Virus record (IMG/VR): IMGVR_UViG_3300028840_007026
Location: 17,356-81,355 of that record
Direction: 5' to 3' (one strand)
DNA from: a virus
Length of the DNA stretch: 64,000 nt
This document shows positions 48,007-59,387 of this stretch, piece by piece. Each line of letters opens with the position of its first letter. The first letter of the stretch is position 1. The notes under the pieces are model-generated. The model searched no databases, had not been told where the DNA came from, and saw only the letters and a list, made by a program, of their open reading frames with translations. The translations under genes were made by a program, and so were the position numbers.

Positions 48007-49149
48007 ATGGCAATTACTATAGTCATTCCGGGTGATCAATCAGATTGGGTTGGAGCAAATAATGATAATTGGGATGAATTAGATTCGCTGAGTGTAAGCG
48101 ATCTTACTGATACCAATATTGCTTCTGAAAAAGAGGGTGATCTTTTACGATGGAACACTTCCACGCCAGCATGGGAAAATTACACCTTCTGGTCAACCAC
48201 TACTACTACGTCCACTACAACTACTACCACTGTGACAGGATCCACTACGACGTCGACAACCGCATCGACAACCTCAACCTCTACAACGACGGTTACTGGA
48301 AGTACTACTTCGACGACAAGTACGACAACAACTGGATCGACAACCACTACAACAACTGGTAGTACGACCACTACGACAGTTGCACCAGCAACTACTACTA
48401 CCACATCAACCACGAGTACAACTACTTCAACAACCACGTCAACAACCACGTCAACCAGCACTACGTCAACGACGAGTACTACAAGTACCAGTACAACGAC
48501 AGTGACAACACCTGCTACCACGACTACTGCTCCTCCGTCTGCATTTAGGTTTAATGAAAATGATAAGAGTGCAGATGTTACTCTCAGCAATGGTGATATG
48601 ACTGCTACCCATACAGGAGCACTTGACGGACAGGATGCAGTTAGATCAGTATCTTCATGTAATTCTCGTAAGGTTTATTATGAGATGCATATTGATGCGA
48701 AATCAGCGAATAATATAACTATCGGCTGGATGGATTCTTCTCATAGTTTAACTAATAGGGTCGGAGAAGATGGATCGAACGTTGGTGTTGGATGGTGGAC
48801 GGCTGGTAGATTGTATCGTGATGGTGGTTTTGTTACTCTAAGCGGTACGGCGGGAACTGATGACTATGTTCAGGTAGCAGTTGATTTTGCAACTGGAGAT
48901 ATTTGGTTTGGTATTAATAATTCATGGTTAGGATCCGGGTCTCCAGATCCAGCAACCGGCACAGATCCTAATATGACTGAAACTGAATTTACTTCGGGTG
49001 ATTACTACATTGCAGCAACACTTTATGATAAAGATCCCGCACATGTAGTCACGATTAGGACTTCTCAAAGTGAGATGGAAGGTACAATTCCCACTGGTTT
49101 TGTTTGTCCTGATGATTACACAGAGGCGACCACTACAACAACGGTTTAA
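48007..49149 (+). CDS. Tail fibre-like protein: attachment module, Thr stalk, SPRY domain, Thr tag
   Basis: KVYYEMHID...AVDFATGDIWFGINNSW; ends ATTTTTV*. Confidence 0.8.
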   Translation: MAITIVIPGDQSDWVGANNDNWDELDSLSVSDLTDTNIASEKEGDLLRWNTSTPAWENYTFWSTTTTTSTTTTTTVTGSTTTSTTASTTSTSTTTVTGSTTSTTSTTTTGSTTTTTTGSTTTTTVAPATTTTTSTTSTTTSTTTSTTTSTSTTSTTSTTSTSTTTVTTPATTTTAPPSAFRFNENDKSADVTLSNGDMTATHTGALDGQDAVRSVSSCNSRKVYYEMHIDAKSANNITIGWMDSSHSLTNRVGEDGSNVGVGWWTAGRLYRDGGFVTLSGTAGTDDYVQVAVDFATGDIWFGINNSWLGSGSPDPATGTDPNMTETEFTSGDYYIAATLYDKDPAHVVTIRTSQSEMEGTIPTGFVCPDDYTEATTTTTV

Positions 49150-49203: not shown

Positions 49204-49806
49204 ATGACTTCACGGAAAGAGTACAGGAAAACGAACATCATCGACAGTTTTACTAACACTGTCCCATTTCTGCCGGAGGAGCATTTACTGGTACATGCTG
49301 CAAAATTGTGGGATGTACAGTATGTCGGTGCTTCTGTGGCAAGTGCGAGCAGTATTGAAATGTTCATCAGAACCAGCAATACCCGACAATTGCTTCACAT
49401 GCTTTTCACCTTTCAATCATCTCTTCTCGCAGATTTTTATATCTATGAGGGGACATCGAAGACGTATGCCAGTGGAAATGCCCTTACTTCTTACAACCGG
49501 AATCGGTACGAGTCGAATCCTCTCAAGGCTGCACCTCAGATTTGTCATACACCGGCTGGATCTGGCGATGGAACTTTACTGTTCCAAGGAATCCTCGGCG
49601 GTGGTGCAGGACCCCGAAACTTCGGGGGTGAGGGGCGAGATGCAAATGAAATATTGCTGGCACCTAATACTGCCTACCTGCTGCGGCTCACCTCCAGAGC
49701 AGCTTCTAACAGGCTTCAGATTAATGCTGAATATTATGAGCGGTTCCACGATGATGCAGCAACCACCACTACCACTACCAGTACTACCACGACAACCACA
49801 GTCTAA
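49204..49806 (+). CDS. Beta-sandwich protein with Thr tag
   Basis: AAGGAG RBS; EILLAPNTAYLLRLT; ends TTTTTTSTTTTTTV*. Confidence 0.75.
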   Translation: MTSRKEYRKTNIIDSFTNTVPFLPEEHLLVHAAKLWDVQYVGASVASASSIEMFIRTSNTRQLLHMLFTFQSSLLADFYIYEGTSKTYASGNALTSYNRNRYESNPLKAAPQICHTPAGSGDGTLLFQGILGGGAGPRNFGGEGRDANEILLAPNTAYLLRLTSRAASNRLQINAEYYERFHDDAATTTTTTSTTTTTTV

Positions 49807-49830: not shown

Positions 49831-50466
49831 ATGGGGAAAACCATCCAGTTATTAGGAGTAGATGGCAATTCTCACCCTGTGTTGATAAATGCTGATGGCG
49901 AGATAGTTGTGAGAAATGGACACGATCAAGCGGTAATGGAAGGGCAAATTTGGTACTCTTCAAATTTTGCCACTCTAAGTGGAGAGGGTGATACTAAGTA
50001 CTTTTATCTGAATATTCCACAAGTTGAAAATCAAGTGTATGGTGAGAACTACTTTCAGTTACATATGCACTGGAAAATCGATGCTGACTCTGGCATGATT
50101 CTGCGGACATATGTGAATCCAACCGTTACAGCAAAAGGTGATCCTTTAGTTGTGAGAAATAAAAACGGTTGGTTTTCTGGTAATCCTCATTATGCTGATT
50201 TTCGAGTTGATGCTGTTTTTTCAGATCTTGGGACTGAAGTTTGGGCCGATATAGTTGGCACAGAGAAGTCAAACGAAGCAGGTCATGGGTTTGCTGGTGA
50301 GTTTATACTGCCCGGAGGATTGTCCTATGCAATGAAAATTGAAAAACAAGCTTCCGGGGATGGATGGGTTTCATGGCACTGGTATTGGAGCGAAGAAGTT
50401 GTTGGAATCAATTCCGTTATTCCTATCACAACTACCAGTACTACCACCACTACCACTACAGTTTGA
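49831..50466 (+). CDS. Beta-sandwich protein with Thr tag (likely paralog of 49204-49806)
   Basis: EFILPGGLSYAMKIE; ends TTTSTTTTTTTV*. Confidence 0.75.
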   Translation: MGKTIQLLGVDGNSHPVLINADGEIVVRNGHDQAVMEGQIWYSSNFATLSGEGDTKYFYLNIPQVENQVYGENYFQLHMHWKIDADSGMILRTYVNPTVTAKGDPLVVRNKNGWFSGNPHYADFRVDAVFSDLGTEVWADIVGTEKSNEAGHGFAGEFILPGGLSYAMKIEKQASGDGWVSWHWYWSEEVVGINSVIPITTTSTTTTTTTV

Positions 50467-50480
50467 TAGGAGGTAGGGAA

Positions 50481-50663
50481 ATGCCTAAAGGAACAAGAGT
50501 ACACAGGTGAGTCGGTTATCTCACCCGTAGGTACGGGAAAGGAAAGGCGATAGCAATCTGTCAGGCTTCAACAAAACAAGGATATAAGAGTGGAAGGTCT
50601 CTTGTTGGTAGAAAAGGATCTTCCAAAGGGAGACGAAGAAAAAGAAAAAAGAGTAGAAGTTAA
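50481..50663 (+). CDS. 60-aa basic protein with in-frame TGA (candidate selenoprotein, or nonsense allele)
   Basis: AGGAGG RBS; MPKGTRVHR-TGA-VGYLTRRYGKGKAIAICQASTKQGYKSG...RS*; hairpin CCCGT-AGGT-ACGGG 13 nt after the TGA. Confidence 0.6.
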
Positions 50664-58310: not shown

Positions 58311-59387
58311 ATGAATAAAAAAATTTCGGTCATAATGCCTTTTGTAAATGAATGGCCTCAAATTGCTTTTACGATTCGAGCAGTCAGGGAAGAATTAGAA
58401 GGCTTTTGTGACTACGAGATTATTGCGATAGATAATTATTGCAAGGAAGTGGAAGAACAAGGACAAGTGCCCGACAGAGCTCATGATGGCTATGTCCTAA
58501 ACAAAAAGAGAATACCCATGTATGGGGAAACCATACATCCCGAAGCACAGTATTCTCAAGGTCATATAAAGGCTCAAGCTTACCAGCATGATTGGCTGAA
58601 GTACTATTCCTACGATTCAAAATTGAGTCATTGGAATGCAAAGAATTATGGAGTATCAAAGTCGACTGGAGAAATACTACTTTTCCTTGATGCTCATGTA
58701 ATGCCGTCTTATCACAGTTTGGTATATGCTGCCTGCTATTATAACGCAATGATGGGTCATAAGGAATTTCAAAACGACACATTACATTTGCCTTTGTCCT
58801 ATCATATCCTTGAGAATAAACGTCTCGCTTACAAACTGGTTTACCAACCGAGATTAGGGAATGTACATTATTCATTTACTTCCTTTTTGGAGAAGGATGG
58901 GGAAGAACCTGGGATTAGTGAATGTCTTGGACCGGATAACCTGAAAGAGTATATAACGGAACTTCCCTGCATGAGTACATGTGGGATGTTTATGTCAAGG
59001 AAGTTGTACGACAAACTCGGTGGATGGCCTGAAGTAATGGGGATCTACGGAGGTGGTGAGAATTTCATTAATTTCTCACTCGCTATTATTGGTGGAAGAA
59101 AGTTTATCAGCAATTATGGAACTCTTCACCATCACGGCGACAGGAGAAATTATCACTACAATTGGGCTGACTACCATACAAATCGGATGGCTGCTACCCA
59201 TTGTTTTGGTGGTATGGAATGGGTGAACAAATACAGAACAGCACTTGGGAATCCTGGGAATAAAGGTGTTAATATGATGCTCGAAAGAGCAGTTATGGGA
59301 ACCCATGATCATCGTAGAAATTTGAAAGAAAATCAAGTTTTGGGAATTGAGGAGTGGGCTTCCAAGTGGGGGGAGAAAAATGGATGA
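58311..59387 (+). CDS. GT-A glycosyltransferase with ppGalNAc-T-like motifs
   Basis: ISVIMPFVNE, AKNYG...S.GEIL.FLDAH (DxH) and LGGW......YGGGEN. Confidence 0.85.
   Translation: MNKKISVIMPFVNEWPQIAFTIRAVREELEGFCDYEIIAIDNYCKEVEEQGQVPDRAHDGYVLNKKRIPMYGETIHPEAQYSQGHIKAQAYQHDWLKYYSYDSKLSHWNAKNYGVSKSTGEILLFLDAHVMPSYHSLVYAACYYNAMMGHKEFQNDTLHLPLSYHILENKRLAYKLVYQPRLGNVHYSFTSFLEKDGEEPGISECLGPDNLKEYITELPCMSTCGMFMSRKLYDKLGGWPEVMGIYGGGENFINFSLAIIGGRKFISNYGTLHHHGDRRNYHYNWADYHTNRMAATHCFGGMEWVNKYRTALGNPGNKGVNMMLERAVMGTHDHRRNLKENQVLGIEEWASKWGEKNG

What the first reader, a model, noticed from the sequence alone, without database searches (positions are those of the whole stretch)
50481..50663. Candidate phage selenoprotein: in-frame UGA with a SECIS-like hairpin
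Seen: after a strong AGGAGG RBS, codon 10 is TGA (50508-50510), but the frame continues for 50 sense codons to a TAA that overlaps the next ATG and fills the intergenic gap exactly. Thirteen nt after the TGA is CCCGU-AGGU-ACGGG (loop 18 nt from UGA) on a lower stem GUUAUC/GAUAGC. Established: bacterial SECIS elements lie directly 3' of the UGA with a G/GU in the apical loop (E. coli fdhF has AGGUCU). From memory, unverified: similar small phage proteins read R-C-V...AIAIC, placing Cys at this position. Inference: Sec paired with Cys27. A nonsense mutation or base-call error is the alternative.
Basis: partly seen in the sequence, partly recalled or inferred. Interest (0 to 1): 0.8.

Follow-up and report, generated by a model that had tools for sequence, protein, structure and literature searches.

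The report
Phage gene that likely encodes selenocysteine
A 60-codon gene of an uncultured 81-kb sediment phage runs through an internal UGA "stop" exactly where its many relatives have a cysteine, and a small RNA hairpin of the bacterial selenocysteine-insertion type follows, so the phage most likely makes a selenoprotein with its host's machinery.

Summary
The ORF at 50481-50663 has TGA at codon 10 (50508-50510).

- **Cys at that position:** all 7 protein-database homologues have Cys there. So do 51 of 58 distinct family genes read at DNA level.
- **Other TGA forms:** three other distinct sequences carry TGA at the same codon with the frame open. They come from related 87-95-kb phages and one short metagenome contig.
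- **Selection downstream:** after the TGA, synonymous sites are near saturation (pS 0.59-0.88) and non-synonymous change is lower (pN 0.14-0.46). That stretch is therefore translated.
- **Normal code elsewhere:** these phages use TGA as an ordinary stop in 23-30% of long ORFs, carry no suppressor tRNA, and share no other conserved in-frame TGA.
- **Hairpin:** all 4 TGA forms have a 4-7-bp hairpin with a GG loop starting 18-20 nt after the UGA, on different stem sequences. At equal strength 3 of 54 non-TGA forms do, and 1 of 90 ordinary TGA stops.
- **Cysteine pair:** Cys10 and Cys27 are kept or lost together across the family.

Weak points: only four distinct sequences, two hairpins miss the -7.5 kcal/mol criterion, and the host and its Sec genes are unknown. 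My searches found no paper describing a phage selenoprotein gene. Unchecked AI notes from this scan report similar candidates in other phage families.

The parts
50468..50473 (+). Shine-Dalgarno sequence AGGAGG, 7 nt before the start codon
   Evidence: Read.
50481..50663 (+). Coding sequence of the 60-residue small basic protein, MPKGTRVHR-U-VGYLTRRYGKGKAIAICQ... plus a Lys/Arg tail. The TAA stop is included and overlaps the next ATG by one base.
   Evidence: A profile built from Cys forms only matches it at E = 1.6e-19 with one TGA inside.
50508..50510 (+). In-frame TGA at codon 10, the proposed selenocysteine codon. It aligns with the nearly invariant Cys10 of the family.
50524..50537 (+). 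Upper hairpin CCCGU/ACGGG with loop AGGU at 50529-50532, the proposed SelB-binding part of a bacterial-type SECIS.
   Evidence: dG -5.9 kcal/mol, with the loop starting 18 nt after the UGA.
50511..50554 (+). Whole stem-loop, lower helices included. RNAfold pairs 50511-50521 with 50541-50551.
   Evidence: -13.6 kcal/mol over 48 nt, z = -2.42 against synonymous recodings.
50559..50561 (+). TGT codon of Cys27, the proposed partner of residue 10.
   Evidence: The two cysteines are kept or lost together.

Best explanation
The gene encodes one 60-residue protein. Its codon 10, UGA, is recoded as selenocysteine by the host's SelB and Sec-tRNA(Sec). These are recruited by the small GG-loop hairpin that starts 13 nt after the UGA, which acts as a bacterial-type in-ORF SECIS. 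The phage supplies only the mRNA signal, because it carries no tRNA-Sec, selB or selD.

The product belongs to an uncharacterised family of small, very basic phage proteins encoded mostly beside portal, adaptor and major-head genes. In that family Cys10 and Cys27 act as a pair. Here Sec10 would form a selenenylsulfide with Cys27, or share a ligand with it.

Shown: the TGA lies at the Cys position; TGA and the open frame are conserved in a clade of related phages; the downstream codons are under purifying selection; the code is ordinary elsewhere; the hairpin goes with the TGA forms.

Inferred: SelB dependence, the identity of the residue, the selenenylsulfide, and virion association.
For: 1. 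**Cys/TGA alternation.** All 7 of 7 protein homologues have Cys10. Of 58 distinct genes read as DNA, 51 have TGY, 4 have TGA and 3 have neither cysteine.
2. **TGA is conserved, not sporadic.** Four distinct sequences carry it: the window; L004 = L006 = L015; L005 = L013; and L014. The three complete phage genomes share 49 of 92 and 39 of 92 proteins with the window's genome at about 22-64% identity. Each has a single family copy, and that copy bears the TGA.
3. **The downstream frame is translated.** For codons 11-43, pS is 0.59-0.88 and pN is 0.14-0.46 in all 6 pairs. For L074 against L014 the values are 0.77 and 0.14.
4. **No global recoding.** TGA ends 28 of 92, 31 of 135 and 31 of 119 long ORFs. 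This gene holds the only in-frame TGA conserved between the genomes. ARAGORN finds no suppressor tRNA.
5. **Hairpin.** The test asked for a perfect stem of at least 4 bp, a loop of 3-10 nt starting 14-26 nt after codon 10, and a G in the first two loop positions.
   - All 4 of 4 TGA forms pass, at -7.9, -5.9, -5.8 and -3.3 kcal/mol, with loops starting 18-20 nt after the UGA.
   - At -3.3 kcal/mol or better, 3 of 54 non-TGA forms pass (Fisher p = 8e-5).
   - So do about 5% of all TGA trinucleotides and 1 of 90 ordinary TGA stops.
   - The stems differ: CCCGU, ACCCGUA, UGCGCA and GCUC.
   - Synonymous-recoding p values are 0.007, 0.033, 0.06 and 0.31, combined 0.0017.
6. **Published bSECIS model.** The geometry fits the constraints in the Fig. 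2 legend of PMC13188914 (passage seen).
7. **The two cysteines are coupled.** Of 148 family representatives, 141 have both cysteines, 6 have neither, 0 have only one, and 1 is a spurious repeat protein.
8. **Assembly.** The assembled contig reads TGA at word depth about 34 with no variant.
Against: - The host is unknown, so its Sec machinery could not be checked. The phages themselves lack tRNA-Sec, selB and selD.
- There are only four distinct TGA sequences, and they are kin. One origin is not rejected (AU p = 0.45), so the counts are not independent events.
- I wrote the hairpin criterion after seeing the TGA forms.
- The hairpins are short. Two of the four (-7.0 and -6.8 kcal/mol over 48 nt) miss the model's -7.5 kcal/mol. 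One (L014) is no better than its synonymous recodings (p = 0.31).
- The registers of the hairpins differ, so column-wise covariation is weak: RNAalifold gives -0.34 kcal/mol with 1 compensatory pair of 4.
- A plain shuffle test of the window's fold is not significant.
- No Rfam family matches.
- Three Cys forms have equally strong hairpins nearby.
- The runs that hold the DNA are probably its own source, and possibly one data set filed twice.
Confidence: 0.68

Rival explanations
1. SelB-independent programmed readthrough. A fraction of ribosomes reads UGA with a near-cognate tRNA (Trp, Cys or Arg), perhaps helped by the hairpin. The outputs would be a 9-residue peptide plus some full-length protein.
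For: Conservation of the TGA and of the downstream frame shows recoding but does not say which kind. The hairpins are short, and two miss the -7.5 kcal/mol criterion. Host Sec genes could not be shown.
Against: The position is a nearly invariant Cys that is kept or lost only together with Cys27, so Trp or Arg there would break the pair. The hairpin position and the G-rich loop fit the SECIS model seen. I know of no hairpin-stimulated UGA readthrough in bacteria (recalled, not searched).
Confidence: 0.13
2. The same SECIS and SelB route, but the host delivers cysteine at the UGA through a Sec-like tRNA charged with Cys. The product would then be the ordinary Cys protein.
For: Everything that supports a SECIS fits this equally well. 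Such Cys-recoding tRNAs in some bacteria are recalled from the literature, and I did not look them up here.
Against: By recollection the system is rare. Nothing in the phage or its relatives points to it, and no such tRNA is encoded by the phages.
Confidence: 0.05
3. The UGA is a real stop ending a 9-residue leader peptide. The rest is made by re-initiation at a non-canonical codon, or is not made at all.
For: AGG-UGA forms a Shine-Dalgarno-like AGGUGA in all four TGA forms. Codon 11 is GTG in two of them.
Against: Codon 11 is GTC in the window and GTA in L005. There is no spacing between the SD-like motif and codon 11. No in-frame ATG, GTG or TTG follows in the window. Residues 1-9 are identical in the 4 TGA forms despite pS of 0.33-0.83. 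In all relatives they are part of the same polypeptide as residues 11-45.
Confidence: 0.04
4. A nonsense mutation, a decaying pseudogene, or an assembly or base-call error.
For: TGY to TGA is a single substitution. The window's own sequence comes from one assembly.
Against: The same TGA occurs in four distinct sequences from different samples. Synonymous sites around it are near saturation while the frame stays intact and pN is low. Each phage has only this copy. The contig reads TGA at depth about 34 with no variant.
Confidence: 0.03
5. The phage or its host reads TGA as a sense codon everywhere, as in code 4 or code 25.
For: Stop-codon-recoded phages exist (recalled).
Against: TGA ends 23-30% of long ORFs in all three genomes. 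Long ORFs are intact under table 11. No other conserved in-frame TGA was found. ARAGORN finds no UCA-anticodon tRNA.
Confidence: 0.01

Closest known systems
Bacterial selenoprotein genes with an in-ORF SECIS read by SelB. The prototype, E. coli fdhF, is recalled. The consensus bSECIS model is from the review PMC13188914, where I saw the passage and the Fig. 2 legend.
   Same: An in-frame UGA at a position where homologues have Cys. A stem-loop directly 3' of it inside the coding sequence. A small apical loop with G in its first two positions, here AGGU, GGGG, AGGGAA and CGGGAU. Spacing of 18-20 nt, inside the model's 16-37 nt. A Cys partner nearby.
   Different: The gene lies in a virus of bacteria that has none of the Sec genes. 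The protein family is new and has no Pfam or PHROG model. The hairpins are at the short, weak end of the model, and 2 of 4 miss the energy threshold. Selenium incorporation and SelB binding are untested.
Poxvirus selenoproteins: the molluscum contagiosum GPx1 homologue and the fowlpox GPx4 homologue (review PMC8310308, passages seen).
   Same: A virus-encoded gene whose UGA is read as Sec by host machinery. In fowlpox the SECIS lies in the coding region.
   Different: Those are eukaryotic viruses with eukaryotic SECIS elements and captured cellular peroxidase genes. This is a phage gene with no cellular homologue and a bacterial-type signal.
Phage-encoded putative tRNA-Sec genes: Basilisk-like Bacillus phages (PMC6145125, passage seen) and huge wastewater phages (PMC10747093, passages seen).
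   Same: They link phages with the selenocysteine system. The 2023 paper speculates that such phages may encode selenoproteins.
   Different: Those reports concern tRNA predictions only, and the passages I saw name no selenoprotein gene. Here it is the reverse: a candidate selenoprotein gene with no phage tRNA-Sec.
Phages with genome-wide stop-codon reassignment (recalled, not read here).
   Same: An in-frame stop codon inside a phage gene.
   Different: Here it is a single codon in a single gene. TGA otherwise acts as a stop, and no suppressor tRNA is present.

Membership tests
Bacterial-type selenoprotein gene (UGA-Sec with in-ORF bSECIS) | In-frame UGA aligned with Cys in homologues (Sec/Cys pair) | tested here: met
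   7 of 7 protein hits have Cys10. Of 58 distinct genes, 51 have TGY and 4 have TGA.
Bacterial-type selenoprotein gene (UGA-Sec with in-ORF bSECIS) | The reading frame continues past the UGA and is under coding selection | tested here: met
   pS is 0.59-0.88 against pN 0.14-0.46 over codons 11-43 in 6 of 6 pairs. A profile built from Cys forms matches across the TGA in 4 of 4 records.
Bacterial-type selenoprotein gene (UGA-Sec with in-ORF bSECIS) | Apical loop of 3-9 nt, upper stem of 4-16 bp, G in the first two loop positions, and 16-37 nt between UGA and loop (PMC13188914) | tested here: met
   4 of 4 TGA forms: loops of 4, 4, 6 and 6 nt; stems of 5, 7, 6 and 4 bp; loops start 18, 19, 19 and 20 nt after the UGA; G at loop position 1 or 2.
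Bacterial-type selenoprotein gene (UGA-Sec with in-ORF bSECIS) | Minimum free energy of -7.5 kcal/mol or lower | tested here: inconclusive
   Over the 48 nt after codon 10 the values are -13.6 (window), -10.7 (L050), -7.0 (L074) and -6.8 (L014) kcal/mol. 2 of 4 pass. These are AT-rich genomes with 38-41% GC.
Bacterial-type selenoprotein gene (UGA-Sec with in-ORF bSECIS) | The translating cell has selA, selB, selC (tRNA-Sec) and selD | not testable with these tools
   The host is unknown. The phage records lack tRNA-Sec above the cut-off, selB and selD. selA was not searched. Cultured relatives are too distant to name a host: portal identity is 30% or less.
Bacterial-type selenoprotein gene (UGA-Sec with in-ORF bSECIS) | Selenium is incorporated at the UGA position | not testable with these tools
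   This needs 75Se labelling or mass spectrometry.
Genome-wide TGA reassignment (code 4 or 25 type, recoded phages) | Many genes interrupted by in-frame TGA, TGA rarely used as a stop, and a suppressor tRNA present | tested here: not met
   TGA ends 28 of 92, 31 of 135 and 31 of 119 long ORFs. Only one conserved in-frame TGA exists. ARAGORN finds no tRNA in G000 and G002, and only tRNA-Gly(UCC) and tRNA-Ile(UAU) in G001.
Unnamed family of small basic phage proteins (MPKGTRVHRCV...AIxICQxSTxQSYxTG) | N-terminal motif, the Cys10/Cys27 pair, the QxSTxQ motif and a basic tail | tested here: met
   Alignment A1. The window matches a profile built from Cys forms only at E = 1.6e-19. The family has 370 representatives at E <= 1e-3 and no Pfam, PHROG or PDB match.

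The most novel reading that the evidence does not exclude
A clade of 81-95-kb phages from sediment metagenomes has turned the conserved Cys10 of a small basic protein into selenocysteine. Most relatives of that protein are encoded in the head module. The phages carry their own bacterial-type SECIS and use the host's SelB system. That would make this a selenoprotein family encoded by viruses of bacteria, with a Sec10-Cys27 selenenylsulfide. Production of the full-length protein would then depend on the host's selenium status and Sec machinery, which could act as a built-in host-dependence or host-sensing step.
Probability: 0.6. Interest if true: 0.8.

Novelty: new variant of a known kind. Interest (0 to 1): 0.76.

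Why it matters
Selenocysteine insertion is treated as a cellular trait. The only virus-encoded selenoproteins named in the 2021 recoding review I read (PMC8310308, passages) are two poxvirus peroxidases. The 2026 review of prokaryotic selenoproteomes (PMC13188914) contains none of the words phage, prophage, virus or viral.

A phage gene that relies on host SelB would have several consequences.

- Phages can exploit the 21st amino acid without carrying any of its machinery.
- It would add a new selenoprotein family of 45-60 residues that is easy to synthesise and test.
- It would give a host-range marker, since the host must be a Sec user.
- It would warn that gene callers miss such genes. This one is absent from protein databases because it is cut at codon 10: neither protein search returned a TGA form.
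- The coupled Cys pair gives a concrete chemical hypothesis about what the family does.

Tried and rejected
- **Rfam**: only chance-level matches, best E = 0.91, all far below their gathering scores. No SECIS family matched.
- **RNAalifold on the four TGA forms**: the MAFFT alignment puts a gap in the window's hairpin and the hairpins sit in different registers. The consensus is therefore weak (-0.34 kcal/mol). I judged each hairpin per sequence instead.
- **Dinucleotide-shuffle test of the window's fold**: not significant.
- **First screen for other in-frame TGA genes**: swamped by off-frame alignments of homologous genes. I repeated it with a filter for TGAs outside long standard ORFs.
- **Host inference failed.**
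  - The genome contigs pattern scan found nothing.
  - The profile scan found one locus, in a Gemmatimonadales MAG contig of 16.8 kb. That is a Cys-form relative and says nothing about this clade's host.
  - Cultured phages are too distant: portal identity is 30.4% or less, and hosts are mixed.
  - The small protein has no match in 50,697 phage records.
- **Next-nearest phages by portal** (35% identity): 0 of 5 records searched hold the family gene, but 4 of them are fragments. This shows nothing either way.
- **Protein searches for mis-called post-TGA fragments**: only Cys forms came back.
- **PDB sequence search**: nothing better than E = 1.
- **Runs X3 and X6** (small shares) cover only the Thr-repeat DNA at 50423-50460 with 4-5 mismatches. 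They give no evidence of presence, expression or habitat.
- **Tree of the 48-column family**: it puts the window's gene apart from the other three TGA forms. The AU test does not reject one clade (p = 0.45), so one versus two Cys-to-Sec changes stays open.
- **Supplements of papers were closed.** The Basilisk paper's tRNA-SeC figure is an additional file that I did not see.

Full report
**What is in the sequence**

The window is bases 17356-81355 of a complete 81,355-bp IMG/VR virus record with direct terminal repeats. At 50468-50473 there is an AGGAGG, and 7 nt later an ATG at 50481. The frame reads MPKGTRVHR, then TGA (50508-50510), then 50 sense codons to TAA at 50661-50663. That stop shares a base with the ATG of the next ORF. 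The preceding ORF ends at 50466 with TGA. No ATG, GTG or TTG follows the TGA in frame.

Thirteen nt after the TGA lies CCCGU-AGGU-ACGGG (50524-50537). RNAfold extends it with lower helices to 50511-50551, at -13.6 kcal/mol over 48 nt.

**The TGA sits on a conserved cysteine**

A search of 5.8 billion proteins with the read-through product gave 7 hits among 19 candidates. All 7 begin MPKGTRVH[RQ]C and have a second Cys in an A-I-x-x-C-Q motif.

A profile-guided scan of IMG/VR returned 69 loci. Adding the window and one metagenome contig gives 71 genes, of which 58 are distinct over the first 120 nt. At codon 10:
- 51 have TGT or TGC;
- 4 have TGA;
- 3 have CTT or GTA, and these same 3 also have Ala in place of Cys27.

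A full HMMER scan of 1.84 billion cluster representatives found 370 family members at E <= 1e-3. Of the best 148:
- 141 have both cysteines;
- 6 have neither;
- none has only one;
- 1 (P0016) is a spurious tandem-repeat protein.

Of these, 126 were scored by a regular expression and 22 by eye. Residues 10 and 27 therefore work as a pair.

**The TGA is conserved in a clade of phages**

Pattern scans found the same codon-10 TGA in these places:
- L004 = L006 = L015, the same gene in a 95,402-bp record and a 17,655-bp record from different samples;
- L005 = L013, in an 87,217-bp record;
- L014, a 2,264-bp metagenome contig.

The three complete genomes are related but far apart. Of the window genome's 92 long ORFs, 49 have homologues in G001 and 39 in G002, at roughly 22-64% identity and in largely the same order. 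By portal protein these records are each other's nearest relatives in IMG/VR (46-51%), and the next ones are at 35%.

Each genome has exactly one copy of the family gene. A profile built only from Cys forms matches it at E of 1e-19 to 1e-21 with one TGA inside. The gene's position differs:
- in G000, after the tail-fibre-like genes;
- in G001, just before the portal gene;
- in G002, just after the portal gene.

**The codons after the TGA are translated**

Among the four TGA forms, codons 1-9 show no amino-acid change while pS is 0.33-0.83. Codons 11-43 have pS 0.59-0.88 against pN 0.14-0.46 in all six pairs. For L074 against L014 the values are 0.77 and 0.14. A dead gene or an untranslated tail would not show this.

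The window's own sequence is backed by a 45,563-bp Logan contig at word depth about 34 with no variant. It appears in two runs that are probably its source and may be one data set filed twice. This excludes a low-coverage error but is not independent confirmation.

**The code is otherwise standard**

TGA terminates 28 of 92, 31 of 135 and 31 of 119 long ORFs in the three genomes (with ORFs of at least 80 aa, 24 of 80 in G000). After filtering out off-frame artefacts, the only in-frame TGA whose two flanks align between genomes is this gene.

ARAGORN finds no tRNA in G000 or G002. In G001 it finds only tRNA-Gly(UCC) and tRNA-Ile(UAU). The sub-threshold tRNA-Sec model hits in G001 and G003 (28.6 bits against a cut-off of 47) are that tRNA-Gly. 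No selB or selD is present.

The recoding must therefore be local, signalled by the mRNA, and carried out by host factors.

**The hairpin goes with the TGA**

The published consensus for bacterial SECIS elements requires:
- an apical loop of 3-9 nt;
- an upper stem of 4-16 bp;
- a G in the first two loop positions, usually followed by G or U;
- 16-37 nt between the UGA and the loop;
- MFE of -7.5 kcal/mol or lower (PMC13188914, passage and Fig. 2 legend seen).

I scanned the 60 nt after codon 10 of all 58 distinct genes. The test asked for a perfect hairpin of at least 4 bp, with a loop of 3-10 nt starting 14-26 nt downstream and a G in its first two positions. All four TGA forms have one:

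| Sequence | 5' arm | Loop | 3' arm | dG (kcal/mol) | Loop starts (nt after UGA) |
|---|---|---|---|---|---|
| Window | CCCGU | AGGU | ACGGG | -5.9 | 18 |
| L050 | ACCCGUA | GGGG | UAUGGGU | -7.9 | 19 |
| L074 | UGCGCA | AGGGAA | UGCGUA | -5.8 | 19 |
| L014 | GCUC | CGGGAU | GAGC | -3.3 | 20 |

Controls:
- Of the 54 other genes, 9 have any such hairpin and 3 have one at -3.3 kcal/mol or better (L062, L049, L011). Fisher's exact p is 8e-5.
- In the three genomes about 5% of all TGA trinucleotides are followed by such a hairpin at -3.3 or better, 1.6-1.9% at -5.8 or better, and 0.5-0.6% at -7.9 or better.
- Of the 90 TGA stops of long ORFs, 1 reaches -3.3 and none reaches -5.8.
- Against 300 synonymous recodings of each peptide, the TGA forms fold better than expected: z = -2.42, -2.05, -1.75 and -0.43, ranks 4, 6, 9 and 29 of 58. 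Mann-Whitney p is 0.015 and combined p is 0.0017.

The stems are built from different codons and amino acids (T-R/Y-G, T-R/M-G, V-R-K/M-R, R-S/M-S). The loop always holds the Gly codon of a conserved R-x-G-M motif. The structure has thus been rebuilt rather than merely inherited.

Caveats:
- I chose the criterion after seeing the TGA forms.
- The four sequences are kin.
- The registers differ, so alignment-based covariation is weak.
- Two of the four miss the -7.5 kcal/mol threshold.
- A dinucleotide shuffle of the window's 61 nt is unremarkable.

**What the protein is**

The family has no Pfam, PHROG or PDB relative. It has no member in 50,697 GenBank phage records. It consists of a module of about 45 residues, followed either by a Lys/Arg tail or by a longer protein. 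Of 147 representatives, 79 are 100 aa or shorter and 68 are longer.

Where neighbours are conserved they are portal, head-tail adaptor and major head proteins. In G001 and G002 the gene flanks the portal gene.

My inference is a small, basic, virion-module protein whose two cysteines form a disulfide or a shared ligand site.

**Mechanism and rivals**

The best reading is Sec insertion by host SelB at a phage-borne SECIS (0.68). That the TGA is decoded at all I put above 0.9. The rivals are:
- SelB-independent readthrough (0.13). This is hard to square with a Cys-only position.
- Delivery of Cys by a Sec-like tRNA through the same signal (0.05).
- A 9-residue leader peptide followed by re-initiation (0.04). 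There is no consistent start codon, and residues 1-9 belong to the same polypeptide in every relative.
- A nonsense mutation or sequencing error (0.03).
- Genome-wide recoding (0.01).

The tree of this short family places the window's gene apart from the other three TGA forms, but one clade is not rejected (AU p = 0.45). One or two Cys-to-Sec switches are both possible.

**Novelty**

- Full-text searches for phage selenoproteins found none. These were: the three terms selenoprotein, bacteriophage and SECIS together; six phrases; 'selenocysteine' with 'phage genomes' and 'in-frame UGA'; 'selenoprotein' with 'phage-encoded'; and 'selenocysteine' with 'viral contigs'.
- The 2021 recoding review names only two poxvirus peroxidases (PMC8310308, passages).
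- The 2026 selenoproteome review does not contain the words phage, prophage, virus or viral.
- Two papers report predicted tRNA-Sec genes in phages. One of them speculates about phage selenoproteins, but the passages I saw name no gene (PMC6145125 and PMC10747093).
- Subscription journals are outside the library.
- Earlier AI notes of this scan report similar Sec candidates in other phage families on other DNA. I did not test them, and they are not independent evidence. This family was not among the look-alikes.

**Verdict**

This is a new selenoprotein-candidate family, encoded by phages, that uses a known bacterial mechanism. Interest is 0.76. It is limited by the small number of TGA forms, the unknown host, and the lack of any chemical proof.

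Noticed in passing
window 48007-49149, 49204-49806, 49831-50466: Three consecutive ORFs just upstream all end in a long Thr-rich tail followed by Val and a stop. The first also has internal Thr/Ser runs and a SPRY domain (Pfam E = 4e-7). Earlier notes of this scan link such tails to a glycosyltransferase at 58311-59387.
   Followed up: no
L004 5799-5871 (G001:20014-20086); also L006 947-1019: A tRNA-Gly(UCC) lies about 256 nt upstream of the TGA-bearing gene in G001 and G003. It caused a sub-threshold hit of the tRNA-Sec model (28.6 bits). It is an ordinary tRNA, not a suppressor. G001 also has a tRNA-Ile(UAU).
   Followed up: yes
window 50505-50512, and the same place in L004, L005 and L014: All four TGA forms read AGG-UGA-GU, a Shine-Dalgarno-like AGGUGA across the recoded codon. 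Only 4 of 51 distinct Cys forms use AGG at codon 9. Whether this context affects termination or Sec insertion is unknown.
   Followed up: partly
L077 2345-2485, L078 3001-3141, L079 3001-3138; also P0121, P0122, P0148: A sub-branch of the family has lost both cysteines together (Leu, Val or Ile at position 10 and Ala at position 27) while keeping the rest of the motif. No member keeps just one cysteine.
   Followed up: partly
L017 3001-4176, L019 3001-4095, L011 1169-2434, L063 3001-4371, L053 3001-3618, L066 3001-3648: In some phages the 45-residue module is the N-terminus of proteins of 206-457 aa that have no Pfam or PHROG match. These are encoded after the major head and head-tail adaptor genes.
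   Followed up: partly
L005 370-372 and downstream (G002): The G002 copy ends with TGA, and the same frame continues into an Arg/Lys-rich stretch resembling the basic tails of other members. A second read-through there was not examined.
   Followed up: no
window 50423-50460: The ACC/ACT (Thr) repeat DNA at the end of the upstream ORF attracts many short, imperfect contigs from unrelated sediment runs, including an RNA library. This inflates depth there (621-752 in X2) and means nothing for this phage.
   Followed up: yes
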